Shown piece by piece: positions 1,906 through 22,081 of a stretch of DNA of 64,000 nucleotides. The notes under the pieces are model-generated. The model did not search any database and was not told the DNA's origin. It worked only from the letters and a program-made list of their open reading frames with translations. How positions within the stretch are numbered: position 1 is the first letter of the stretch; every line of letters starts with the position of its first letter. Source of the DNA: Acholeplasma sp. (GTDB taxonomy: Bacteria > Bacillota_I > Bacilli_A > Acholeplasmatales > UBA5453); NCBI GenBank assembly GCA_036677365.1, contig JAVBWN010000006.1, positions 8,919-72,918 of the forward strand, in the 5' to 3' direction. A program made the translations under genes and the position numbers.

Positions 1906-2593
1906 TAGTCATTGTCACATGTTGCCAGGTGTGGACGATGGTGCCAAAGACGAAGCCATGGCGTTAGCGATGATTGAAAAATCTGCAAACGATGGCGTCA
2001 CTCACATCATTTTAACCCCACATTTTCGCAAATTTGATGAAGGCAAACGCTTAAAACAAATAGCGGTTTTTGAAAATCTAAAACTTTCAGTCAAACAAAA
2101 AGGCATACCGATTGAACTCTATTTAGGAAAAGAAGTGTATTACAAAGATAACCTTCTTGAACAAACCAAAAATTTAGCGATCGATGGTAGCCCATATGTC
2201 TTGATTGAGTTTTCAACCACCATGGAACAAAATATTGAAGAAATCATCTTCAATTTAAAGGTTTCTAAACTCAAACCGATTGTCGCTCATGTGGAAAGAT
2301 ACCCATATTTAAAGAAAGAGGACTATCACCAAATCCGCTTGACTGGGGGACTTTTACAAGTCAATGCAGGTGCGATTAAAGGGTTTGAAGGGTTTGGTAA
2401 ACGACGATTGGTGAAGTTTCTACTGAAAAATCAATTGGTAGATATTGTTGCTTCCGATGCACATAACCTAACCAACCGTAAGCCCAATTTAAAAAATGCC
2501 TATAAAACTGTTTCAAAAAAGTATGGCAAAGCCTATGCGGATTTGATTTTCTTTGAAAACCCGAAGAAGATCATCGATTCAATTCAACTATAA
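1898..2593 (+). CDS. CpsB/CapC PHP-family protein-tyrosine phosphatase
   Basis: MIDSHCH, TPH, AHVERY, ASDAH motifs; start moved to ATG 1898 overlapping the kinase stop. Confidence 0.9.
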   Translation: MIDSHCHMLPGVDDGAKDEAMALAMIEKSANDGVTHIILTPHFRKFDEGKRLKQIAVFENLKLSVKQKGIPIELYLGKEVYYKDNLLEQTKNLAIDGSPYVLIEFSTTMEQNIEEIIFNLKVSKLKPIVAHVERYPYLKKEDYHQIRLTGGLLQVNAGAIKGFEGFGKRRLVKFLLKNQLVDIVASDAHNLTNRKPNLKNAYKTVSKKYGKAYADLIFFENPKKIIDSIQL

Positions 2594-2613
2594 GCCAGCC
2601 ACCGCTGGCTTTT
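2593..2613 (+). terminator. Rho-independent terminator
   Basis: AGCCAGC-CACC-GCTGGCT followed by T run. Confidence 0.8.
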
Positions 2614-2632
2614 ATATTTTAGGGAGAATACA

Positions 2633-3859
2633 ATGAAATTTACAAATGCTTTTACAGAAGATTTTGTTTTAACGGATGACATTTTAAGCATTGGTCAGAT
2701 GGCAAAAGAACGTAAAAAACAAAATCCAAACACGATTGACGCGACGATTGGTGCGCTTTTAAATGACCAAGGGGTATTGTTAGCCTTTCCTTCGGTAGAA
2801 CAAATCCTTAAGAATCAAGATTCCACCAAAGTCCGTGCCTATCCGCCAGTCGATGGGGGAAAACCATTCAAGAAGGCCCTCAAACAATGGGTTTTTCAAG
2901 ATAAACTACCACAAATTGAATCGGCATTTAAACTTGAAGTACTCGCCACACCTGGCGCATCCGGTGCTTTATCCAATGTGCTCGCCAATTATGTGACTAA
3001 AGGGGATATGGTCGTCTTACCTGACATCTTTTGGAGTAATTACGCAGCCATCATCAACGCCACCGAAGCTGGTCACGTAACCTATCCAATGTTTAAAAAC
3101 AATGCGTTTAATTTGGAAGGATTCAGAAAGACCACCACTTTAATCGCGAAAGAAACGAATAAAGTCGTTGTATTGCTCAATGACCCTTGTCAAAATCCAA
3201 CCGGGTATTCACTTTCAAAAACAGAACTTGAAGGCTTGATTGAACACCTCGATGACCTCGGTAAAACTGTCCCTGTGGTGCTCATCTATGACATCGCTTA
3301 TTTGGATTATGCCGATTTAAATTACGCCGATACGAGAACGCGATTCTTATCTTTCCTAAAGGTAAACTCATCGATGTTGATTACCATCGCTTTTAGCGCA
3401 TCCAAAACTTTTGGTATATATGGGTATCGTGGTGGTGGGGTCGTTGCGTTATCTAAAGATGACAGTGTCATTGAAGAATTCAGTCGCGTCGCTTTATATA
3501 AAGCACGTTCAACGTGGAGTTGTCCACCCACCGAACCCATTTTCTTGATGAACACTTTACAAGAACAACCCCTTTTACAACAACAGTTTTTAGGTGAACT
3601 CCAAACGGTTCGTACCCTATTACAAACCCGTGCAAAAGCATTCATTGAAGAGGCCAAACAAGTTCAACTCGTTCATTATCCGTATGTCTCAGGCTTTTTC
3701 GTCACAATCCCAGTATTGGAACCAAAAAAAGTATTTGAGCGACTCAAAGCGAAAGATATCTTTGTCGTACCGCTATCTGGTGCGATCCGTGTCGCTTTAG
3801 CAGCGATATCGGTGGATGAAATTCACGGGCTAGCCGCTAAAATTAAAGCAGAAATCTAA
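2633..3859 (+). CDS. PLP-dependent aminotransferase class I/II (aspartate/aromatic type)
   Basis: NPTG, YDIAY and SASKTFGIYGYRGG PLP-lysine motifs. Confidence 0.88.
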   Translation: MKFTNAFTEDFVLTDDILSIGQMAKERKKQNPNTIDATIGALLNDQGVLLAFPSVEQILKNQDSTKVRAYPPVDGGKPFKKALKQWVFQDKLPQIESAFKLEVLATPGASGALSNVLANYVTKGDMVVLPDIFWSNYAAIINATEAGHVTYPMFKNNAFNLEGFRKTTTLIAKETNKVVVLLNDPCQNPTGYSLSKTELEGLIEHLDDLGKTVPVVLIYDIAYLDYADLNYADTRTRFLSFLKVNSSMLITIAFSASKTFGIYGYRGGGVVALSKDDSVIEEFSRVALYKARSTWSCPPTEPIFLMNTLQEQPLLQQQFLGELQTVRTLLQTRAKAFIEEAKQVQLVHYPYVSGFFVTIPVLEPKKVFERLKAKDIFVVPLSGAIRVALAAISVDEIHGLAAKIKAEI

Positions 3860-3999
3860 GAGGGTAATACCTCTTTTTTCTTTAGCTTGGTCGTGAGCAT
3901 ATAATCCATAATCGATGGCTATCGTGTTATAATTAGAATGTCAAAGTAAAAAATGTAAGGTCTTTGACCTTGAAATCATATGAAAGGTTTGGATGCAGG

Positions 4000-6064: not shown

Positions 6065-7531
6065 ATGAAACGTTTATGGACTTTACTCTTATTGACGATA
6101 CTTGTCGTTGGGTTAGTTGCTTGCACACCACCAGAAACAACCAAGGCACTTGTGTTGGACGAAGTTCCAAGCCAAATCACAACGGACTATACATTGCCAA
6201 GCATTTACGATGATTTTAATCTCGAATGGTTTTTAAACGATGAACCCATTGGCTATGTTCTTCCAATAAAATATACGTTTAAAGGTACGACGGACGTATT
6301 ATCTGTAAAAATGACCAAAGGATTTCAAGTAGTTACTGGTGAAAAAGAAGTGACGTATGCTTTGAGTTCAATCACGACCGATTTGTACATTCAAACCGAA
6401 AACAATCAAAATATCACATCCAAAGATACGTATCTTCAGGGTACAGTATCCATAGACTCAGATACCGATGCTTTTGACCAAACGAACTTGACCATGGGCA
6501 TTAAAGGTAGAGGTAACTCAACTTGGGATTTCCCTAAAAAACCTTATCGTATTAAGTTTACAGAAAGACAAAGCTTGTTGGGCATGCGTCCGGCGCGGGA
6601 TTATGTCCTATTGGCAGAATATAACGATAAATCCTTGATTAGAAACTACTTAGCACATTATTTTTCTACCTTATTAGACATTGAATACACCCTAGAAACC
6701 CGTTTTGTACAACTCTACATCAACGGCAATTATAATGGATTATACTTACTAACCGAACAAGTAGAAGTCGATAAAAATCGTTTAAATATCGATGAATCTG
6801 TGGATGCCGATGGGGGATTCTTAATTGAAATGGAATCCAATGACCGGATCTGGCAAGAAGGCGAAGAAGACTTAAATTGGGTCAAGGTTGATGGTTATAA
6901 TTATGTCATCAAATCCCCTAAAATGGACGAACTCACCGTCCCTGAAGTGAACGGTAAGATTCAATTCATTAAAAACACATTGAACCAGTTTATCCAATCG
7001 ATTGGCCAAGGGACGTATGAATCCTACATGGATATGAACCAATTCATCGATTACTTCATCATTTCTGAACTCTTTAAACAAGTCGATGTGGGCTATTCAT
7101 CGGTGTATATTTATAAAGATAAAAATGAACTCATGCGCATGGGTCCAGTATGGGATTTTGATATTTCTAGTGGAAATGGCGATTATTACGATTCTGGTCC
7201 ACAAGGCTACTGGGTTGACTATAACCCGTGGTTCAATTATTTAATTGATAAGCCTGAATTTGAATCGCGCTATATCGTCAGGTTCATGGAAGTTTCGTAT
7301 TTATACTTTGACCAATTGATCGCTGAACTCGATTTGGTCTCTTCGTTATTATTCACAGACGCGTTGATCAACTTTGAAAAGTGGCGAATTCTTGGCATTT
7401 ATGTCTGGCCAAACCCACCTCAAATGGTCGAAGCGGACACGTATGCTAAACAGATTCAATACTTAAAAAATTATTTAATCCAACGTGAAGCGTGGTTAAC
7501 CACCACATTGACCACCGATGGGTATCGATAA
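6065..7531 (+). CDS. CotH kinase family lipoprotein
   Basis: Lipobox LVAC after a hydrophobic stretch; IKGRGNSTW, KKPYRIKF, YLLTEQV, GPVWDFD CotH motifs; RBS GAGGT supports ATG 6065. Confidence 0.85.
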   Translation: MKRLWTLLLLTILVVGLVACTPPETTKALVLDEVPSQITTDYTLPSIYDDFNLEWFLNDEPIGYVLPIKYTFKGTTDVLSVKMTKGFQVVTGEKEVTYALSSITTDLYIQTENNQNITSKDTYLQGTVSIDSDTDAFDQTNLTMGIKGRGNSTWDFPKKPYRIKFTERQSLLGMRPARDYVLLAEYNDKSLIRNYLAHYFSTLLDIEYTLETRFVQLYINGNYNGLYLLTEQVEVDKNRLNIDESVDADGGFLIEMESNDRIWQEGEEDLNWVKVDGYNYVIKSPKMDELTVPEVNGKIQFIKNTLNQFIQSIGQGTYESYMDMNQFIDYFIISELFKQVDVGYSSVYIYKDKNELMRMGPVWDFDISSGNGDYYDSGPQGYWVDYNPWFNYLIDKPEFESRYIVRFMEVSYLYFDQLIAELDLVSSLLFTDALINFEKWRILGIYVWPNPPQMVEADTYAKQIQYLKNYLIQREAWLTTTLTTDGYR

Positions 7532-7554
7532 AATAGGCGTTTGCCTATTTTTTT
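7531..7554 (+). terminator. Rho-independent terminator
   Basis: AAATAGGC-GTTT-GCCTATTT plus T run. Confidence 0.8.
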
Positions 7555-7607
7555 GCATATAGAGAAAGCGCTTTATATAGTATAATATAAACAGAAGGAT
7601 GTGAATT

Positions 7608-8579
7608 ATGAAATACGTGAACTTAAGCCGTTACGGCAGACAAATCGATCCTTTTTTCTTTGCTTTGGAAAGTGTCTTATTGGAAGATTTAAAGGAAGAT
7701 TTATTTTTCATTTGGCATGTCTATGGGGCAGTCATCATCGGTAAAAATCAATTGCTTGAAACCGAAGTCAATGAAGCCTTTTTGACAGAAAACAATATCC
7801 CAGTATTTAGACGTTTGTCTGGTGGTGGGGCCGTATACTCGGATGAAGGGTGTATCAAATACAGCTTTCTATCTAAAAAATTTGATAAAGAAGTCATATT
7901 CAAAGAGTCCTTAACGAAGATCAAATCCGTCTTTGACGCGTTAAATATCCCCGTCGTTTTGTCGGGTCGAAATGACATCTTATATGAAGGTAAAAAGTTT
8001 TCTGGCAATGCCTATTTTCACAATCAATATGGGTCATGTTTGCACGGGACCATTTTGTACGATACGGATTTTGAAATCTTGGTTAAATCGATTACACCTT
8101 CAAATGAAAAACTCATTTCTAAAGGCATTGAATCGGTGCGACAACGTGTCACCAACATGAAAGATGTGGTGGGTAAAGACATTGAAGATTTTACCCATTT
8201 CTTGGTCAATCATGTGACCGATGGGGAATATGTATTAAGCGAAGTACAAGAACAAAAAGTGTTTGAACGGATGAAAAAATTCAGCGAACCCACTTACATC
8301 AAAGGCAATAACCCACCCTATAGTTTCAAACACATCAAACGTTTTAACTGTGGGTCTGTGGGGGTCAAGCTTGACATCAACCGTGGGGTTATCCGTGATT
8401 TTATCCTCTATGGGGACTATTTTACAGACCAAGAACCGACCGAATTAAAAACATATTTTATGAATCAGCCATTTGATATAAAAACGATGGAAGCAATCAT
8501 CAGTCAATTCAACATATCGGATTATATTGTGGGTTTAACCAATGAAGAATTCATTAGTCTATTCAAGGAGGATGTATGA
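7608..8579 (+). CDS. lplA: Lipoate-protein ligase A
   Basis: IGKNQ, RRLSGGGAVYSD, GRNDI, KKFSGNA, HGTILYD motifs. Confidence 0.92.
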   Translation: MKYVNLSRYGRQIDPFFFALESVLLEDLKEDLFFIWHVYGAVIIGKNQLLETEVNEAFLTENNIPVFRRLSGGGAVYSDEGCIKYSFLSKKFDKEVIFKESLTKIKSVFDALNIPVVLSGRNDILYEGKKFSGNAYFHNQYGSCLHGTILYDTDFEILVKSITPSNEKLISKGIESVRQRVTNMKDVVGKDIEDFTHFLVNHVTDGEYVLSEVQEQKVFERMKKFSEPTYIKGNNPPYSFKHIKRFNCGSVGVKLDINRGVIRDFILYGDYFTDQEPTELKTYFMNQPFDIKTMEAIISQFNISDYIVGLTNEEFISLFKEDV

Positions 8580-9667
8580 TGGATATGAAAATCACGTGTC
8601 TACACGATAGACACCTCAAGCTTGGCGCGAAAATGACCGAATTTGGTGGGTTTGATATGCCGGTCTCTTATCGGGGTATTTTACAAGAACACCAAGCGGT
8701 TAGAGAAGCCTGTGGCGTATTCGATTGTTCCCACATGGGTGAAATCGATTTAAAAGGCAAAGACGCACTCAAATTTTTAAACGAAATCACCACCAATGAT
8801 TTCACCGATTTAAAAGACAAACAACTCCAGTACACCTTACTTTGTGAAGAATCGGGTGGGGTGGTGGATGATTTGATGGTCTACCAATTTAACAAAGAAC
8901 ACTATTTATTGGTTGTGAACGCATCCAATACCATCAAAGACTTTAAATGGTTAACCAGCCATCAGTCTCCTTATGACATTGAATTGTCCAACGATTCAGA
9001 ATTCTTTGGTCAACTCGCTTTACAAGGCCCTAAAGCAGTAGAAATATTGAAGGTTCTCATCCCTGAAGTAGCATCACTAACTTTCATGCATTTTGATACA
9101 TTTGTTTGGAATCACCACGAATTCATCATCTCAAGAAGCGGTTATACCGGTGAAGATGGGTTTGAGATTTATGGTTCACCCAAAGCCACGGTTGCTTTAT
9201 GGGACCAATTGATGACTTTAAATGTGGAACCATGTGGCTTAGGGGCGAGAGATACCTTACGTTTTGAAGCCGGATTACCGCTATATGGTCATGAAATCAA
9301 CGGGTTCATTACCCCACTCGAAGCTGGTTTATCCTTTGGGGTTAAACTCCATAAACCATTCATTGGTAGAGATGTTTTATTGAAACAAAAAGAACAAGGC
9401 TTAGAAAGAAGAATCATTGGTCTTGAACTATTAGAAAGAAACATCGCGAGGGATGGGTATATTGTGTATGATGCCAATCAAAAGATGATTGGTTACATCA
9501 CCACAGGGTATATGATTCCCAATACCAATAAAGCTTTAGCAAACGCAATGATCGATTCGAGTGTTAAAATTGGTACAGAAGTATTTGTTGAAATTAGAAA
9601 CAAGATGGTCAAAGCCGTCATTAGAAATAGAAAATTTTACGAAAAGAAATATAAAAAAGAGGTCTAG
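8576..9667 (+). CDS. gcvT: Glycine cleavage system T protein (aminomethyltransferase)
   Basis: FGGFDMPV, FDCSHMG, SRSGYTGEDGFE, GLGARDTLRFEAG. Confidence 0.97.
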   Translation: MMDMKITCLHDRHLKLGAKMTEFGGFDMPVSYRGILQEHQAVREACGVFDCSHMGEIDLKGKDALKFLNEITTNDFTDLKDKQLQYTLLCEESGGVVDDLMVYQFNKEHYLLVVNASNTIKDFKWLTSHQSPYDIELSNDSEFFGQLALQGPKAVEILKVLIPEVASLTFMHFDTFVWNHHEFIISRSGYTGEDGFEIYGSPKATVALWDQLMTLNVEPCGLGARDTLRFEAGLPLYGHEINGFITPLEAGLSFGVKLHKPFIGRDVLLKQKEQGLERRIIGLELLERNIARDGYIVYDANQKMIGYITTGYMIPNTNKALANAMIDSSVKIGTEVFVEIRNKMVKAVIRNRKFYEKKYKKEV

Positions 9668-9669
9668 AC

Positions 9670-10047
9670 ATGGAAAAGATTCTAAAAGATTTATTGTACA
9701 CCCCAACCCATGAATGGGTTAAGATTGAAAACAACACAGCGAAGATTGGTATTACAGACTATGCACAACACAGCCTTGGGTCGGTCGTCTTCGTCGATTT
9801 ACCGAATGTGGGCAGTGCTTTTGGTCAATTTGACCCATTCGGTGCTGTAGAATCGGTTAAAGCAGCGTCTGATTTATTGATGCCAGTTTCTGGCAAAGTC
9901 ATCGCTGTCAATGACGCCTTAGTATCACAACCTGAACTTTTAAACGAAGATGCTTTCGCCAACTGGCTCATCGAAGTTGAAGTCAAAGACCCATCTGAAG
10001 TGGCTAAACTACTTTCACCAGACGCGTATCAAAAGACCTTACATTAG
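9670..10047 (+). CDS. gcvH: Glycine cleavage system H protein
   Basis: THEW, GITDYAQ, lipoyl-lysine motif VESVKAASD. Confidence 0.97.
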   Translation: MEKILKDLLYTPTHEWVKIENNTAKIGITDYAQHSLGSVVFVDLPNVGSAFGQFDPFGAVESVKAASDLLMPVSGKVIAVNDALVSQPELLNEDAFANWLIEVEVKDPSEVAKLLSPDAYQKTLH

Positions 10048-16310: not shown

Positions 16311-16454
16311 ATTGTAAGCGTTTTTAAAAATAACGGCTATAATCATTGACAAACCAAGAAGACTGCGTTTTAATAGAGGTGTGAGTACAAAACCGATATT
16401 AAAAAATAGTCTTTTTCTTTTAGAAAAGAAAGACGGAAGGCAAGGGACAAGGCA

Positions 16455-17795
16455 TTGTTTAAAAGTGCGTATCTAGAGCGAGTGTTTAACGATGTACTTA
16501 AAAAGGACAACGGACAACCGGAATTCATTCAAGCGGTTGAAACGTTCTTTTTATCGATGGATGACATCATTTCGATGACACCGCAAATTGAGAAGTTTGG
16601 CATCATGGAGCGTTTGGTAGAACCTGAACGTCTAATCCATTTTAGAGTCACCTGGGTCGATGATCAAGGCATTACACGTGTCAATCGTGGTTATCGCGTC
16701 CAGTTTTCATCGGTATTAGGGCCTTACAAAGGCGGGTTGCGTTTCCACCCAACCGTTAACGCCTCCACGATGAAGTTTTTAGGTTTTGAACAAACATTCA
16801 AAAATGCTTTAACCGGCCTACCTATGGGTGGGGCGAAAGGGGGCAGTGATTTTTCATCGATTGGTAAATCCGATGGTGAAATCATGCGTTTTTGTCAAAA
16901 CTTTATGTTAGAACTCTACCGCCATATCGGTCCAGACACCGATGTTCCTGCAGGGGATATTGGTGTAGGTAACAAAGAAATCGGGTATCTTTATGGCATG
17001 TACAAAAAAATCCGTAATGAATCCACTGGGGTTATGACCGGTAAAGGTTTAACCTATGGTGGGTCATTGGTTAGAAAAGAAGCGACAGGGTATGGCTTAT
17101 GTTATTTCGTTTCTGAAATGCTTAAAACATACCGTTCAGACCGTATCGACGATAAACGCGTCATCATCTCAGGTTCAGGTAAAGTCGGCTTATACGCAGC
17201 GATTAAAGCCCATGAACTGGGGGCGATTGTGGTTGGGATGTCCGACATCAATGGGTATATTCACGATCCAAATGGTTTGAAGATGGACATCGTAACCGAA
17301 CTTGCCAGCAATGGAGAACTCGCCTTAAGGTATCATGAAAAAACCGGTTGTGAATACGGTAAAGACCCAAGAGACTTGTGGCAAGTCCCTTGTGACATCG
17401 CGATGCCATGTGCGATTCAAAATGAACTCGATTTGGAATCCGCGAAAGCTTTGGTTGCCCACGGTTGTTACCTAGTGGCAGAAGGCGCGAACATGCCGTG
17501 TACATTAGAAGCTGAAAAGTATTTTACAGAACATCAAATTCTATTCGCCCCAGGTAAAGCAGCGAATGCAGGTGGGGTTGCAGTATCACTGTTTGAAATG
17601 AGCCAAAATGCGATGCATTACCCTTGGCCTTACGATGAAGTCGATGATAAACTCAAAGGCATCATGAAAGAAATATTCTTTAAATGTTATACCGCTGCAC
17701 GCAAATACAAGAACCCTTATGACCTCATCAGTGGCGCGAATATCGCTGCCTTCCTTCGTGTCTATGAAGCGATGATGGACCAAGGCATTCAATAA
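16455..17795 (+). CDS. gdhA: NADP-specific glutamate dehydrogenase
   Basis: GPYKGGLRFHP, GGAKGG, DVPAGDIGVG, EATGYG, AEGAN, KAANAGGV. Confidence 0.97.
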   Translation: MFKSAYLERVFNDVLKKDNGQPEFIQAVETFFLSMDDIISMTPQIEKFGIMERLVEPERLIHFRVTWVDDQGITRVNRGYRVQFSSVLGPYKGGLRFHPTVNASTMKFLGFEQTFKNALTGLPMGGAKGGSDFSSIGKSDGEIMRFCQNFMLELYRHIGPDTDVPAGDIGVGNKEIGYLYGMYKKIRNESTGVMTGKGLTYGGSLVRKEATGYGLCYFVSEMLKTYRSDRIDDKRVIISGSGKVGLYAAIKAHELGAIVVGMSDINGYIHDPNGLKMDIVTELASNGELALRYHEKTGCEYGKDPRDLWQVPCDIAMPCAIQNELDLESAKALVAHGCYLVAEGANMPCTLEAEKYFTEHQILFAPGKAANAGGVAVSLFEMSQNAMHYPWPYDEVDDKLKGIMKEIFFKCYTAARKYKNPYDLISGANIAAFLRVYEAMMDQGIQ

Positions 17796-17802
17796 TACAT
17801 TC

Positions 17803-17832
17803 AACCGTACCTTAACAAAAGGTACGGTTTTT
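17803..17832 (+). terminator. Rho-independent terminator of gdhA
   Basis: AACCGTACCTT-AACAA-AAGGTACGGTT plus T run. Confidence 0.85.
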
Positions 17833-17853
17833 GCCAATAATAGGAGACAGATA

Positions 17854-17889
17854 TTGACACAAAAATCTCATCATGATATGATAGTGTCA
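17854..17889 (+). promoter_or_regulatory. Sigma70-type promoter of the kinase pair with a flanking inverted repeat
   Basis: TTGACA(17854)-17 nt-TATGAT(17877); TGACAC(17855)-N23-GTGTCA(17884). Confidence 0.7.
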
Positions 17890-17913
17890 TAATATAGAAA
17901 CGGATGTGGCACG

Positions 17914-18774
17914 ATGATTGATTACTCAGTATACCCTAAAAATAATCGAATATATACTGGATCAGAAGAAAAATTCGGTATTACGATTGATGATGAATAT
18001 TTTATTGTCAAGTTCCAAAAGAATTCAGAAAATGGGTTATTAAACAATCATATTTCAGAACACTTAGGCTCTATGATATTTAGTCTTGCAGGTGAAAATG
18101 TTCAATGGACGAGACTTGGTTTGTATCAACAGCGACCTATTGTATTGTGTAAAGATTTCAACAATACGGGAAGTATATTCACTCCTTTCAATGGTGTAGG
18201 GGAGTCTTCACTAGATAGAGATAAAGAAATGTATCAATATGATTATCAAGACATTGTTAGAATGTTACAAGATAATATAAAAATTACACAAGTTTCTACA
18301 GTAATTGAAAAGTTTTGGAATATGTTTATTATAGATGCTTTGATTGGTAATTTTGATAGACATGGCGCAAACTGGGGTTTTATCAAAAAAGATAATCAGT
18401 ACACCATGGCACCCATATTTGATAATGGATCATCACTGTTTCCAAGACGTAATACTGAACAATTGATGCTTGAAGCCATGAATGATTCTACAGTACTTCA
18501 TCATATGACATTTAAGTATCCAACATCACAAATTAAAATAAACCATAAGAAATCCTCATATTTTGAAGTTATAAACAGCTTAAAATTTGAAGCTTGCAAT
18601 GAAGCACTTATTAGAATGTATCCTAAAATTAATCTTGATCAAATTTGTAGTTTTATCGATGGAGAAGAGATGCTCACAACGATTCAAAAAAAGTTTTATA
18701 AGTTTATTATACAGCATCGATACAAACACATCATCAAAGCATCCTATGAAAGGTTGGTTAATCAACATGAATGA
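17914..18774 (+). CDS. HipA-like (CtkA-type) Ser/Thr kinase
   Basis: IVKF lysine, SEHLGS, CKDF, catalytic loop DALIGNFDRHGANWGF, APIFDNGSSL. Confidence 0.85.
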   Translation: MIDYSVYPKNNRIYTGSEEKFGITIDDEYFIVKFQKNSENGLLNNHISEHLGSMIFSLAGENVQWTRLGLYQQRPIVLCKDFNNTGSIFTPFNGVGESSLDRDKEMYQYDYQDIVRMLQDNIKITQVSTVIEKFWNMFIIDALIGNFDRHGANWGFIKKDNQYTMAPIFDNGSSLFPRRNTEQLMLEAMNDSTVLHHMTFKYPTSQIKINHKKSSYFEVINSLKFEACNEALIRMYPKINLDQICSFIDGEEMLTTIQKKFYKFIIQHRYKHIIKASYERLVNQHE

Positions 18775-19540
18775 CTTAAATTCACCAATTCAACACATGA
18801 CAAGTATTTATCACAATGAAGGATATATCACATACCAATGGAAGAAAGTGTATTTTAAGATTGCAAAACTGACATATGAATTGTTTCCTGATGAATCGTT
18901 TCAATACATATTTGAACCCTATTATGATGTTTTAGACGCAATTGATGGTTTAGAAATACCAGGTATAGATTTGACACTTAGACAGCAGGCATATTATCGT
19001 GTTAATGTGACACCTGTTTTTGTTTCTGAGCGCATAACGCCTAAGAATAGAGTGAATCTTATTGAAGAGTTAAAAGAATACAATTTGGATTATCATCAAC
19101 CATTTCTATTATTGCTAGATGCGCACAAACAGTACGGCGGAGACCATTTGTCTCTAAAAAGTGATACATTTTATTTAAACTTGGAAAATAATCATATGGA
19201 TGAGAACGATTTATATAAATTAATACCAAAGACACTGCAAACCTTAGCAAGTAGATCAAACTTTATTTTGGGCAGTATTATTGTGAATAGCGTTAATCGA
19301 ACCATTCTCATCAAAAACTATTGTCATTTATACGAAAAAGTGTCCCACTATTATCAAAATAAAATAAAAAGAAACCGTGGTAGAGCCAAACAATCGGTAC
19401 CCTTCATTATGCTCGAAGAAACCCAAAAACTGTACACTAATGGGGTAATCACATTAGAAGAGGCCGTTAAACAGAGTGGGTTATCATCAAAACGCACTTA
19501 TTATCGTAGAGTGAAAGAAATGAAAGAAAAGGAAAAATAG
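18767..19540 (+). CDS. Kinase-associated protein: probable HipA-N/HipS-like domain plus C-terminal resolvase-type HTH
   Basis: ATG 18767 overlaps the kinase stop; PVFVSERITPKNR...YGGDHLSL segment; C-terminal GRAK...ITLEEAVKQSGLSSKRTYYRRVKE. Confidence 0.55.
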   Translation: MNDLNSPIQHMTSIYHNEGYITYQWKKVYFKIAKLTYELFPDESFQYIFEPYYDVLDAIDGLEIPGIDLTLRQQAYYRVNVTPVFVSERITPKNRVNLIEELKEYNLDYHQPFLLLLDAHKQYGGDHLSLKSDTFYLNLENNHMDENDLYKLIPKTLQTLASRSNFILGSIIVNSVNRTILIKNYCHLYEKVSHYYQNKIKRNRGRAKQSVPFIMLEETQKLYTNGVITLEEAVKQSGLSSKRTYYRRVKEMKEKEK

Positions 19541-19621
19541 AATCCTTCCAATTCATAAAAAACAGACATAGTTTATGTAGTAAAATATGTTACAATACTT
19601 TTATTGAGAGGAGCGATTTCG

Positions 19622-21133
19622 ATGTATAAAACCATTTTGTTTGATATGGATGGGACATTGATTGAATCTAATGATCTTGTTTTAGATATCTATCAAGCCC
19701 TCGTCAAACTTCACCCACCCAAAGTCAGTTTAAAAAGTATCCCTGTGGCCGATGTGCTTGCGAAAGGATACCCAGAAGTACTCGAAATGCTCTATGGTAA
19801 AAAGCGTCCGGATTTGATTGAAGAGATTTACCGGATTCACAGTGAACTTGCGGTCAATCACTTAAAACTCTATCCGAACACATTAGACATTTTAGAAAGT
19901 TTAAAAAGCCGAGGTATCAAGCTTTATATCATTACCTCTGAACTGAGAAAAATCGCCATTGCGGAACTCACAGGTTTGAGTATTTTCCATTTCTTTGAGG
20001 ATATCATTGCGTTTGAAGATGTATCTAGACCAAAACCAGACCCTGAAGGCATCATTAAATTGATTACCACCAAGAAACTCAATAAAAAAGAAATGATGTT
20101 TGTGGGGGATTCGATTTCGGATGCGAAAGCCGCCAAAGATGCAGGGATATTATCCATCTACATGAATTGGCATAAAGATGCGTCAAAAATGATTTATTTC
20201 GATAAAACATTCCACGCATTTGAGGAATTGTGTAGTTTTACCTATGATTATGAACCTGTATTGACACTCAAGATGAAACCCAACAAACCTTTTAAAATCG
20301 TTCAATTCACCGATTTACATTTGATGAATGACATGAAGGATTTGAAAACTAAAGGTTTAATCAAGAAGATGATTGCGGAACACAAGCCCGATTTCATCGT
20401 CTTTACCGGCGATCAAACGATGTCAAAAGATAGCCCTAAACTCTATAAGGATTTAGGAACTTATATGGGACAATTCAAAACCCCTTGGAGCTTTATCTTT
20501 GGGAACCACGATACCGATGAAGGCGTCGCATATGAAACCTTGATTGAACACATCCAAGATGCGAATTACCTTGCTTTTAAACCAGGGAACCCTAAACATG
20601 GCTATTCCAATTATTTCATTGAAATTAAAGATAAAAAACTGACAAAAGGACTACTCTTCATGATGGATTCCCACGTCGATGCGTTTTACATCATTGATCA
20701 AAAACCCACTTGGGGGTATGGTTCACTCAAAGATGAACAGCTCCTTTGGATGGACAGTGTGGTCAATCAATACCATTTGCCTTTTGAAAAAGTACCAAGT
20801 TCTCTCTTGTTTTGTCACATTCCACCCCATGAGTTTAAATCGATTACGCCAGAACAAAAACAGGACTACATTGGGTCATATCATGAAACCCCATGTACCC
20901 CACCAATCCCAAACCATATGATGGAAATTCTCAATAAGAAGAACAGTTGTAAAGGCATTTTTGTGGGTCATGACCACTACAATGATTATGCCTTCTACCA
21001 CCACCAAGTATTGTTGGCATATGGCCGTGTCAGCGGTTATTATGATTATGGTCCAAAAGGATTTAAAAAAGGCTGTCGTGTCATTGAACTCAACCACGAT
21101 GGCGAAATCAACACATACGTCAGCATTCTTTAA
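19622..21133 (+). CDS. HAD hydrolase - calcineurin-like metallophosphoesterase fusion
   Basis: HAD motifs DMDGTL, ITS, KPDPEG, VGDSISD; then FTDLH, TGD, GNHD, CHIP, GHDH; RBS GAGGAG supports ATG 19622. Confidence 0.88.
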   Translation: MYKTILFDMDGTLIESNDLVLDIYQALVKLHPPKVSLKSIPVADVLAKGYPEVLEMLYGKKRPDLIEEIYRIHSELAVNHLKLYPNTLDILESLKSRGIKLYIITSELRKIAIAELTGLSIFHFFEDIIAFEDVSRPKPDPEGIIKLITTKKLNKKEMMFVGDSISDAKAAKDAGILSIYMNWHKDASKMIYFDKTFHAFEELCSFTYDYEPVLTLKMKPNKPFKIVQFTDLHLMNDMKDLKTKGLIKKMIAEHKPDFIVFTGDQTMSKDSPKLYKDLGTYMGQFKTPWSFIFGNHDTDEGVAYETLIEHIQDANYLAFKPGNPKHGYSNYFIEIKDKKLTKGLLFMMDSHVDAFYIIDQKPTWGYGSLKDEQLLWMDSVVNQYHLPFEKVPSSLLFCHIPPHEFKSITPEQKQDYIGSYHETPCTPPIPNHMMEILNKKNSCKGIFVGHDHYNDYAFYHHQVLLAYGRVSGYYDYGPKGFKKGCRVIELNHDGEINTYVSIL

Positions 21134-21135
21134 GC

Positions 21136-21184
21136 AAAAAAGAAGAAGCCCATTCAGTGTTTTTCACTGAGTTGGCTTCTTTTG
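21136..21184. terminator. Bidirectional terminator
   Basis: AGAAGCC..TCAGTG-TTTTT-CACTGA..GGCTTCT with A and T flanks between convergent genes. Confidence 0.75.
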
Positions 21185-22081
21185 TTATTCTTCTTCATCT
21201 CTAACAATTTCGATGACAATTGGTATATCCATTTCAAGTGAAAAGCGGCTTAAGGCTGATGTGAAATCCTCATAATCTTCACGATTGAGCGGTTTATTAT
21301 TAGGATAACTGTATTCTAGACTATCATCATAAACCTCTAGTAAATAATGATCGTTTTCATAAAAAACATACTCTGCCAACAATTGATTGCCAATTTTGTA
21401 GAAAACAATGGCAGATTCATGATTTGTGTCGTCTTTTAAATAGTAGAACCGAATGGTGCGTTCAGGTATTGTCTTAAAGATACCCTTGTATTGAGAATGA
21501 CCTTTTAGGAACGTGACATCTATGGTATCAATACCAGGCACTGGTTCGACATATACTGGTGCGGGTATTTCACCATGTTCATCCTCATATTGTTTAATCA
21601 AGTCAGCCATGCTAGGCATTGGTTTTTTGTATAAATATGCGAACCAAACAATGATCATCAACAAAGCTATGATACCCGTAACAAGTGAACCTAAATATAG
21701 ATTGTTCTGCTGATCTTCGATATAATCGTCTAAAGTCAGTATCGCAACATCGTTATGATAAATATACACAGCTTCCATGTCATAGTCATCGTAAAACACT
21801 TGGATATAACCAACGCGAAGGGTGTCGTTTGGATTTAATGAATTAATAACGGATCCCTTCGGATGAACAAATGAAGGTATATACAGTGGTTTGTCAAATT
21901 CGTTAATATAAATAAGTTTATCATCATCGTCTGTGTCATATCGATCAAATGTGAACACAGCTTCTTGAACATCCGTAACCTCAAATGTATGAGCAATGTC
22001 ATACAAAGCAAGTGAACCAACAGCCGCGATGACAGCGACAAAACCAATAGCAATTAATCCAATGATTTTTTTAATAGGCAT
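21185..22081 (-). CDS. Hypothetical membrane protein (two TM segments)
   Basis: Long ORF with N-terminal and central hydrophobic helices; RBS GAGGT supports ATG 22081. Confidence 0.75.
   Translation of the reverse strand: MPIKKIIGLIAIGFVAVIAAVGSLALYDIAHTFEVTDVQEAVFTFDRYDTDDDDKLIYINEFDKPLYIPSFVHPKGSVINSLNPNDTLRVGYIQVFYDDYDMEAVYIYHNDVAILTLDDYIEDQQNNLYLGSLVTGIIALLMIIVWFAYLYKKPMPSMADLIKQYEDEHGEIPAPVYVEPVPGIDTIDVTFLKGHSQYKGIFKTIPERTIRFYYLKDDTNHESAIVFYKIGNQLLAEYVFYENDHYLLEVYDDSLEYSYPNNKPLNREDYEDFTSALSRFSLEMDIPIVIEIVRDEEE

What the first reader, a model, noticed from the sequence alone, without database searches (positions are those of the whole stretch)
17854..19540. Kinase-first HipA/CtkA-like toxin paired with a HipS-like + resolvase-HTH fusion
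Seen: an AT-rich two-gene unit with its own consensus promoter, inserted after the gdhA terminator. Gene 1 is a 286-aa kinase with intact catalytic motifs (VKF, SEHLG, GNFDRHGAN, PIFDNG) but lacks the HipA N-terminal subdomain. Gene 2 overlaps its stop and contains PVFVSERITPKNR...LLLL...YGGDHLSL plus a C-terminal GR-x-K...IT-x-x-EA...S-x-RTYYRR HTH of the resolvase type. Established: in hipBST systems the HipA N-subdomain is a separate antitoxin (HipS) and a separate HTH protein (HipB) autoregulates, both encoded upstream of the kinase. Inference: here both antitoxin functions are fused in one protein downstream of the kinase, using a non-XRE HTH. This would be an unusual two-gene kinase TA or anti-phage module.
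Basis: partly seen in the sequence, partly recalled or inferred. Interest (0 to 1): 0.72.

Follow-up and report, generated by a model that had tools for sequence, protein, structure and literature searches.

The report
Kinase operon with resolvase-derived repressor partner
An accessory two-gene cassette in an Acholeplasmataceae genome pairs a HipA/CtkA-type protein kinase with a partner made of an undescribed domain and the DNA-binding half of a dead resolvase; it matches a predicted but untested toxin-antitoxin or phage-defence type, and the claimed HipS-like domain is not supported.

Summary
Window 17854-19540 holds an AT-rich two-gene operon behind a near-consensus promoter. It sits between the gdhA terminator and a HAD-phosphatase gene, and two sister genomes lack it at that site.

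Gene 1 (286 aa) is an intact short HipA_C kinase of the Helicobacter CtkA family (PDB 3AKJ, E 1.6e-37; PADLOC PDC-M03A, 2e-30). Gene 2 (257 aa) overlaps its stop by 8 nt.

In 76 of 76 informative kinase loci from several phyla, a gene-2 homologue lies directly downstream. Its C-terminal half is homologous to the second half of serine resolvases (alphaD to alphaE, GR arm, HTH; E 3e-5 to 1e-4). No catalytic-serine motif is detectable.

A covarying inverted repeat, GTRTCAA-N15-18-TTGACAC, overlaps the -35 in 47 of 80 loci. The window carries a degenerate copy.

The N-terminal 135 residues fold confidently (pLDDT 88) but match neither HipS nor HipA-N by Pfam, hhalign or Foldseek.

The best fit is the in-silico hipMP module of Gerdes et al. 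2021, and the PADLOC candidate PDC-M03. New here: the whole gene-2 protein also occurs fused to STAND NTPases, again directly downstream of the kinase.

Verdict: a new member of a known, untested kind.

The parts
17803..17832 (+). gdhA intrinsic terminator (11-bp stem, 5-nt loop, T-run); left border of the cassette
   Evidence: Folds at -15.7 kcal/mol, z = -5.2. The same hairpin is present at the empty site in G009.
17831..17837 (+). Degenerate left operator half-site TTGCCAA, 16 nt upstream of the -35 half-site
   Evidence: Corresponds to the GTRTCAA / GTGCCAA left arm seen in relatives. It has 2 mismatches to a perfect inverted repeat.
17854..17882 (+). Promoter TTGACA-17-TATGAT with TG-extended -10. 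The -35 is embedded in the operator half-site TTGACAC (17854-17860).
   Evidence: Scores 11 of 12. TTGACAC is the conserved right arm of the inverted repeat in 47 of 80 related loci.
17884..17890 (+). Third operator-like half-site GTGTCAT, just downstream of the -10. It forms the inverted repeat TGACAC-N23-GTGTCA with the -35 site.
   Evidence: G004 has GTGCCAT at the corresponding place. STAND-linked loci have the same everted arrangement.
17914..18774 (+). Gene 1: 286-aa CtkA-type HipA_C Ser/Thr kinase (HipM-like; PADLOC PDC-M03A), the presumed toxin or effector
   Evidence: Pfam HipA_C 54 bits against a cut-off of 30.5. CtkA 3AKJ E 1.6e-37 over residues 18-282. PDC-M03A 2e-30. Catalytic residues are invariant.
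18767..19540 (+). Gene 2: 257-aa partner (HipP-like), the presumed kinase-neutralising repressor
   Evidence: 61 homologues. 378 clusters at 50% identity. Directly downstream of the kinase in 76 of 76 loci.
18767..19171 (+). Gene-2 N-domain (aa 1-135): highly conserved, confidently folded, with no known relative
   Evidence: Invariant residues G19, P51, I64-P65-G66, R78, P83, F85, R89, R95, Y123, G125, D126. Model pLDDT 88.5, pTM 0.83. No PDB or BFVD match.
19184..19537 (+). Gene-2 C-terminal half (aa ~140-257): resolvase-derived alphaD-beta4-beta5-alphaE, GR arm (G205-R206, 19379-19384) and HTH (aa 213-256)
   Evidence: Profile A5 against the PDB: Sin/Bin3 3.3e-5, gamma-delta resolvase 1.2e-4, Tn3 resolvase 1e-3. 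hhalign against resolvase catalytic domains: E 7e-5. Pfam HTH_7 in 4 of 35 members, best 9e-6.

Best explanation
This is a self-contained, horizontally acquired two-gene operon of the hipMP / PDC-M03 type.

Shown by sequence: one promoter drives a short CtkA-family HipA-fold kinase, followed by a translationally coupled partner.

Inferred:
1. The partner dimerises through its resolvase-derived alphaE helix.
2. Its GR arm and HTH bind TGTCAA-type half-sites that overlap the -35 and flank the -10, which represses the operon.
3. Its conserved N-terminal domain binds the kinase and keeps it inactive.
4. When the partner is lost, titrated or displaced (for example by phage infection or transcription shut-off), the kinase phosphorylates an essential cellular target. 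By analogy with HipA acting on GltX and HipT acting on TrpS, this would arrest growth or abort infection. The target is unknown.

The N-domain is not demonstrably HipS-like and appears to be a separate, undescribed fold.
For: - Kinase identity and intact catalytic motifs.
- Strict synteny: 76 of 76 loci across Acholeplasmataceae, Bacillales, Lachnospiraceae, Oscillospirales, Negativicutes and Spirochaetes. Distant homologues at 28-45% identity keep it too.
- Tight coupling: the gap is mostly -8 to +24 nt.
- Resolvase homology covers alphaD to the HTH, with no catalytic Ser motif.
- The inverted repeat GTRTCAA-N15-18-TTGACAC overlaps the -35 in 47 of 80 loci, against 0.3% of shuffles and 0.9% of other windows. 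The arms covary (GTATCAA/TTGATAC, GTTTCAA/TTGAAAC).
- Accessory nature: present in 2 of 10 genomes of the genus, with clean empty sites.
- Decay pattern of the kind expected for a toxin gene: G004 has the kinase deleted while gene 2 is 100% intact. In L001 the kinase is frameshifted while gene 2 is intact.
- The whole gene-2 protein is also found fused to nSTAND3/AAA_16 NTPases of 1472 and 1476 aa. These lie directly downstream of kinases 47-50% identical to gene 1, which links the pair to conflict-system architectures.
- Literature: hipMP is described as a short kinase plus a downstream gamma-delta-resolvase-like putative antitoxin (PMC8262856).
Against: - Nothing has been tested experimentally. 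Toxicity, neutralisation, DNA binding and the target are all inferred.
- The N-domain is far more conserved than typical antitoxins. This could mean an enzymatic or sensing role rather than simple inhibition.
- The window's own operator is degenerate (2 mismatches in the left arm), and 33 of 80 loci did not pass my inverted-repeat criterion.
- In G011 gene 2 is frameshifted before the HTH while the kinase looks intact. So loss of the repressor part is tolerated, or this is an assembly error.
- Neighbourhoods are mostly housekeeping genes, with only scattered defence genes.
- Earlier scan notes report partnerless CtkA-fold kinases in housekeeping operons, so the fold is not necessarily toxic.
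- I could not obtain HipM or HipP sequences to prove identity with hipMP, because Table S1 was cut when stored.
Confidence: 0.62

Rival explanations
1. One reading: gene 2 is a HipS-homologous domain (the detached HipA N-subdomain 1) fused to a resolvase HTH. It neutralises the kinase exactly as HipS neutralises HipT.
For: There is a local motif resemblance: P-x-F...ER..P..R...L...Y.GD.L against F..LLPeg..R..l...G.d..GA. With a 110-sequence alignment, hhalign pairs gene-2 residues 66-125 with Couple_hipA positions 34-90 at P = 0.015. Like HipT, the kinase lacks N-subdomain 1. HipS-like domains downstream of short kinases exist in hipIN and hipJS (PMC8262856).
Against: - hhalign probability is only 0.03-3%.
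- No Couple_hipA or HipA_N hit in any of 35 members or in the genome.
- Foldseek of two confident models finds no HipA, HipS or HipT chain among the 50 best hits shown, and nothing below E 0.06.
- In the HMMER match to Sin/Bin3, the GD.L motif falls in the resolvase-homologous stretch.
Confidence: 0.1
2. A signalling pair rather than a toxin system. The kinase phosphorylates the gene-2 transcription factor, or is allosterically controlled by it, to regulate their own operon and possibly other genes, without toxicity.
For: Both proteins are unusually conserved: 69% mean column identity for the kinase alignment and about 50% for the partner alignment. The partner is a DNA-binding protein with a conserved operator. 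STAND-HTH fusions resemble MalT/AfsR-type signal-responsive regulators. Partnerless CtkA-fold kinases exist in housekeeping contexts.
Against: The cassette is accessory, patchy and inserted into unrelated neighbourhoods. The only conserved operator found is its own promoter. Variants that have lost the kinase keep gene 2. PADLOC lists the family as a defence candidate.
Confidence: 0.2
3. A host-directed secreted kinase, like the published role of H. pylori CtkA, with gene 2 as a chaperone or regulator.
For: The closest solved relative is CtkA, which is described in the literature as a cell-translocating proinflammatory kinase (my own knowledge of that literature).
Against: The organism and most carriers are environmental or commensal. 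Runs holding this sequence come from soil, sediment, groundwater and bioreactor metagenomes. No secretion genes are adjacent. The partner is a DNA-binding protein.
Confidence: 0.03

Closest known systems
hipMP modules (HipM kinase + HipP putative antitoxin), Gerdes, Baerentsen & Brodersen 2021, mBio (PMC8262856)
   Same: A short Hip kinase lacking N-subdomain 1, with Ser/Thr next to the Gly-rich loop (YTGSEEK here). The kinase comes first. The downstream partner is similar to gamma-delta resolvase and is proposed to be a DNA-binding antitoxin.
   Different: The paper rests on 5 modules and no experiments. It does not describe the partner's N-terminal domain, the operator or the STAND fusions. 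I could not align to their sequences, so identity with their clade is inferred from the description.
PADLOC candidate defence system PDC-M03 (PADLOC-DB v2)
   Same: The kinase hits PDC-M03A at 2e-30 over its full length. Gene-2 homologues hit PDC-M03B models of the same size, collinearly (1e-6 to 1e-3).
   Different: The window's own gene 2 gives no PDC-M03B hit at E <= 1, so this is a divergent branch. PDC-M03 is a prediction with no reported phenotype.
hipBST (HipB, HipS, HipT) of E. coli O127 and Legionella
   Same: A kinase lacking the HipA N-subdomain, neutralised by a separate protein, with an HTH protein for autoregulation.
   Different: The gene order is reversed, there are two genes rather than three, the HTH is of the resolvase type rather than XRE, and the partner's N-domain shows no detectable HipS homology. 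The kinase is only remotely related to HipT (E 1.6e-3, against 1.6e-37 for CtkA).
CtkA (JHP0940) of Helicobacter pylori, PDB 3AKJ/3AKK/3AKL
   Same: The closest solved kinase. The alignment is full-length, with identical catalytic loop (GNFDRH..NWGF) and FD.GS motifs.
   Different: CtkA is described as a secreted host-acting kinase. I did not test whether it has a gene-2-type partner.
Small serine recombinases (gamma-delta / Tn3 resolvase, Sin, Hin)
   Same: The C-terminal ~120 residues align to resolvase alphaD-beta4-beta5-alphaE, the GR minor-groove arm and the HTH. The operator half-sites (TGTCAA + A/T tract), in inverted repeats about 30 bp across, resemble res and hix half-sites (the res/hix comparison is from my own knowledge).
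   Different: There is no detectable catalytic Ser motif or N-terminal half of the catalytic domain, and no Pfam Resolvase hit. It is not a recombinase.

Membership tests
HipA-superfamily kinase (Pfam HipA_C) | Match above the Pfam gathering score, with the catalytic D-x-H-x-x-N loop and the Mg-binding D | tested here: met
   54.3 bits against a cut-off of 30.5. D148, H150, N153 and D170 are invariant.
CtkA family | Full-length similarity to H. pylori CtkA | tested here: met
   E 1.6e-37; residues 18-282 align to 22-291 of 3AKJ.
hipMP (Gerdes 2021) | Short kinase (279-321 aa) lacking HipA N-subdomain 1 | tested here: met
   286 aa. The Gly-rich loop is at residues 14-20. There is no Couple_hipA or HipA_N hit.
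hipMP (Gerdes 2021) | Downstream partner with similarity to gamma-delta resolvase | tested here: met
   1GDT E 1.2e-4 and 2R0Q E 3.3e-5 with profile A5. HTH_7 hits.
hipMP (Gerdes 2021) | [quoted passage not shown] | not testable with these tools
   The stored copy of Table S1 is cut before clade XI, so no HipM sequences were available.
PADLOC PDC-M03 | Both the A and the B component match | tested here: inconclusive
   A matches at 2e-30. For B, the window protein has no hit at E <= 1, while 7 of 9 homologues hit weakly at 1.4e-6 to 1.4e-2.
HipS / HipA N-subdomain 1 (Pfam Couple_hipA) | Sequence-profile or fold similarity to HipS or HipA-N | tested here: not met
   No Pfam hit in 35 members. 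hhalign probability <= 3%. Foldseek against the PDB shows no HipA or HipS.
hipBST | Three genes in the order hipB (XRE HTH), hipS, hipT | tested here: not met
   Only two genes, with the kinase first. There is no ORF between the gdhA terminator and the kinase.
Serine recombinase (Pfam Resolvase) | N-terminal catalytic domain with the Y-x-R-V-S-T-x-x-Q serine motif | tested here: not met
   No PF00239 hit. The hhalign match starts at alphaD, and the N-terminal half does not align.
Type II toxin-antitoxin system | Toxin toxicity, neutralisation by direct binding, and autoregulation | not testable with these tools
   Only indirect support is available: synteny, coupling, the operator and the decay pattern.

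The most novel reading that the evidence does not exclude
The 135-residue N-domain of gene 2 is a new kinase-binding fold, unrelated to HipS. It tethers CtkA-type kinase effectors to interchangeable control modules: a dead-resolvase repressor here, and the same unit extended by a STAND NTPase sensor elsewhere. Together these would define a widespread, uncharacterised abortive-infection family, present in at least 547 species, in which a protein kinase is the effector.
Probability: 0.35. Interest if true: 0.6.

Novelty: new member of a known kind. Interest (0 to 1): 0.4.

Why it matters
Hip-type kinases are model persistence toxins, yet the hipMP / PDC-M03 branch has never been tested. This work shows the branch is common in gut and environmental Firmicutes and Spirochaetes.

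It also gives concrete handles for experiments:
- a defined operator;
- a resolvase-derived dimerisation and DNA-binding half;
- a confidently folded partner domain with no known relative;
- natural STAND-NTPase fusions that argue for an immune role.

It corrects the tempting HipS assignment. If H. pylori CtkA belongs to the same functional class, its published host-directed role may need another look.

Tried and rejected
- **HipS homology.** Tested four ways and rejected as unsupported: Pfam on 35 members, a Pfam search of the whole genome, hhalign with two alignment depths, and Foldseek with full-length and domain-only models.
- **Pfam CTD11 (ABC-3C / Lamassu effector C-terminal domain).** The hit is E 6e-5, below the cut-off. 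A scan of 399 genomes gave many 16-27-bit hits to unrelated proteins in AT-rich genomes and only 2 true members. I treat it as probable composition noise.
- **A complete dead resolvase spanning residues 76-257, with YYRVN as the remnant of YxRVS.** The lengths match (182 against 183 aa), but greedy hhalign does not align these motifs. Not claimed.
- **Expression evidence.** The two runs labelled RNA-Seq contain a 90-kb contig, so they are DNA.
- **BFVD fold search.** Nothing found.
- **Literature.** Searches for PDC-M03, hipMP, CtkA and anti-phage found no experimental work. The ABC-3C paper was not held.
- **Target-site duplication or recombinase at the insertion.** None seen. The intergenic DNA is too diverged to place exact junctions.

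Full report
**Observation.**
The region holds two same-strand ORFs. Gene 1 is 17914-18774 (286 aa). Gene 2 is 18767-19540 (257 aa) and starts in ATGAATGA, overlapping the kinase stop by 8 nt.

A TG-extended promoter, TTGACA-17-TATGAT, lies at 17854-17882 and scores 11 of 12. It sits about 20 nt after the gdhA terminator hairpin, which folds at -15.7 kcal/mol with z = -5.2. GC is 0.30-0.32 in the cassette and 0.37-0.46 around it.

**Accessory status.**
Only 2 of 10 genomes of the genus carry gene 2, and 5 of 41 relatives do. In G009 and G005 the gdhA and HAD genes are adjacent, with 75-180 nt between them and no cassette.

In G004 gene 2 is 100% identical at the protein level. Window 17927-18625, which encodes kinase residues ~5-237, is replaced there by 87 nt.

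A strain found in sludge metagenomes shows 1 SNP in the 1.7-kb cassette. It shows 10 in gdhA and 7 in the HAD gene.

Family f1 is Acholeplasmataceae. A same-family genome's contig is recovered as a named Acholeplasmataceae MAG record.

**Gene 1.**
- Pfam HipA_C: 54 bits against a cut-off of 30.5.
- H. pylori CtkA (3AKJ): E 1.6e-37, aligned end to end.
- HipT and HipA: only E 1e-3 to 0.7.
- PADLOC PDC-M03A: 2e-30.
- K33, E49, D148, H150, N153 and D170, and the Gly-rich Y14-G16-E18-K20 motif, are invariant across 18 relatives.

It is an intact short Hip-fold kinase lacking HipA N-subdomain 1.

**Gene 2, C-terminal half.**
Pfam gives HTH_7 (resolvase HTH) in 4 of 35 members (best 9e-6) and HTH_28 in 8. 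One homologue is named 'recombinase family protein' by NCBI.

A 68-sequence profile (A5) hits Sin/Bin3 (2R0Q, 3.3e-5), gamma-delta resolvase (1GDT, 1.2e-4) and Tn3 resolvase (1e-3). The aligned stretch runs from resolvase residue ~56-58 to 181.

hhalign against 20 resolvase catalytic domains gives E 7e-5 for gene-2 residues ~140-211. That stretch corresponds to alphaD, beta4-5, alphaE and the GR arm.

The N-terminal half of the resolvase catalytic domain, including the Ser motif, does not align. There is no Pfam Resolvase hit. So the C-half is a catalytically dead resolvase remnant that supplies dimerisation and DNA binding.

**Gene 2, N-domain.**
Residues 1-135 are the most conserved part of the protein. 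They fold confidently: pLDDT 87.7 for the full-length model and 88.5 (pTM 0.83) for the domain alone.

Foldseek against the PDB and BFVD gives no hit better than E 0.06, with TM about 0.25. No HipA, HipS or HipT chain appears among the 50 best hits shown.

- No Couple_hipA or HipA_N Pfam hit in 35 members or in the genome.
- hhalign against 22 Couple_hipA domains that I collected gives probability 0.03-0.06%.
- With a 110-sequence alignment it gives 3%, P 0.015.

HipS homology is therefore unsupported.

The CTD11 (ABC-3C) hit lies below the cut-off and within the noise band seen in AT-rich genomes.

**Co-occurrence.**
Of the 80 best, all 76 with enough downstream DNA carry a gene-2 homologue directly downstream on the same strand. 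The gap is mostly -8 to +24 nt. Distant gene-2 homologues at 28-45% identity show the same arrangement.

The gene-2 family has 378 clusters at 50% identity.

Two STAND NTPases of 1472 and 1476 aa (nSTAND3/AAA_16) begin with the whole gene-2 unit: N-domain, GR arm and HTH (hhalign probability 99.7%). Each lies directly downstream of a kinase 47-50% identical to gene 1, behind a similar TGTCAAAA-type inverted repeat.

**Operator.**
Upstream of the kinase, 47 of 80 loci have the inverted repeat GTRTCAA-N15-18-TTGACAC, whose right arm is the -35. The rate is 0.3% in shuffles and 0.9% in other windows of the same loci.

The arms covary (GTATCAA/TTGATAC, GTTTCAA/TTGAAAC). This supports binding by a dimeric protein.

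The window has a degenerate version, TTGCCAA-N16-TTGACAC (17831-17860). It also has GTGTCAT (17884-17890) after the -10.

From my own knowledge, the TGTC + A/T-tract half-site and the ~30-bp span resemble res and hix half-sites. That fits a GR-arm plus HTH domain.

**Context.**
The immediate neighbours belong to 139 different Pfam families among 128 genes. Large serine recombinases appear in 6, and defence genes are scattered (AbiE, AbiQ, SoFic, Dnd/Ssp and PDC candidates). The Sphaerochaeta locus abuts an ABC-3C system. This looks like a small mobile cassette rather than a strict defence-island resident.

**Decay pattern.**
- G004: kinase deleted, gene 2 intact.
- L001: kinase frameshifted, gene 2 intact.
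- G011: gene 2 frameshifted before the HTH, kinase apparently intact.

The first two fit loss of a toxin gene. The third is a caveat.

**Comparison with known systems.**
Gerdes et al. 2021 describe hipMP as a short HipM kinase plus a downstream HipP 'gamma-delta-resolvase-like' putative antitoxin. It rests on 5 modules and is untested (PMC8262856).

PADLOC lists PDC-M03, whose A component matches strongly. Its B component matches gene-2 homologues weakly and collinearly.

Two earlier notes of this scan, on homologous cassettes in other genomes, reached the same reading. I re-derived the resolvase homology and the operator independently here.

**Verdict.**
The cassette is a new member of a predicted, untested kinase TA or defence type. 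The added value is the undescribed N-domain fold, the quantified operator and the STAND fusions.

Noticed in passing
L159:252-5526; L160:5144-10431 (also L161, L162): STAND NTPases of 1472 and 1476 aa (nSTAND3/AAA_16) begin with a complete gene-2 unit (N-domain + GR arm + HTH). Each lies directly downstream of a CtkA-type kinase, with an HTH_3 gene after it in L160-L162.
   Followed up: partly
G004 contig C27 (L013), equivalent to window 17927-18625: A sister genome keeps the promoter and a 100%-identical gene 2. About 700 nt of the kinase gene are replaced by 87 nt of unrelated sequence, leaving an orphan partner.
   Followed up: partly
L001:4996-5995 and 6862-9798: In a Sphaerochaeta MAG the kinase is frameshifted while gene 2 is intact. 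The cassette abuts an ABC-3C / Lamassu-like system (DUF2326 ABC ATPase, MC6, SMEK_N-CTD10).
   Followed up: no
L009 (G011 contig C3) 953-1713: Gene 2 is split by a frameshift just before the GR arm and HTH, while the kinase upstream looks intact. This is either tolerated loss of the DNA-binding part or a MAG error.
   Followed up: no
window 16400-21200: Runs X18 and X19, labelled RNA-Seq, assemble a 90-kb contig and are effectively DNA. That strain differs at 1 site in the cassette, 10 in gdhA and 7 in the HAD gene, which suggests the cassette is younger or recently exchanged.
   Followed up: partly
window 19604-21133: The downstream gene is a 509-aa fusion of a HAD-type phosphatase and a metallophosphoesterase-like domain, by eye from the translation. 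It has its own TG-extended -10 (TGTTACAAT) right after gene 2, and there is no terminator between the two genes.
   Followed up: no
L103, L104, L106, L109, L111, L115, L116, L121, L126 (upstream ORF ~2141-3883): In an Acutalibacteraceae/Clostridia subclade the cassette lies directly downstream of a ~580-aa ORF. Large serine recombinase domains were found in 6 of the 128 neighbours scanned. This hints at carriage on an integrative element there.
   Followed up: no
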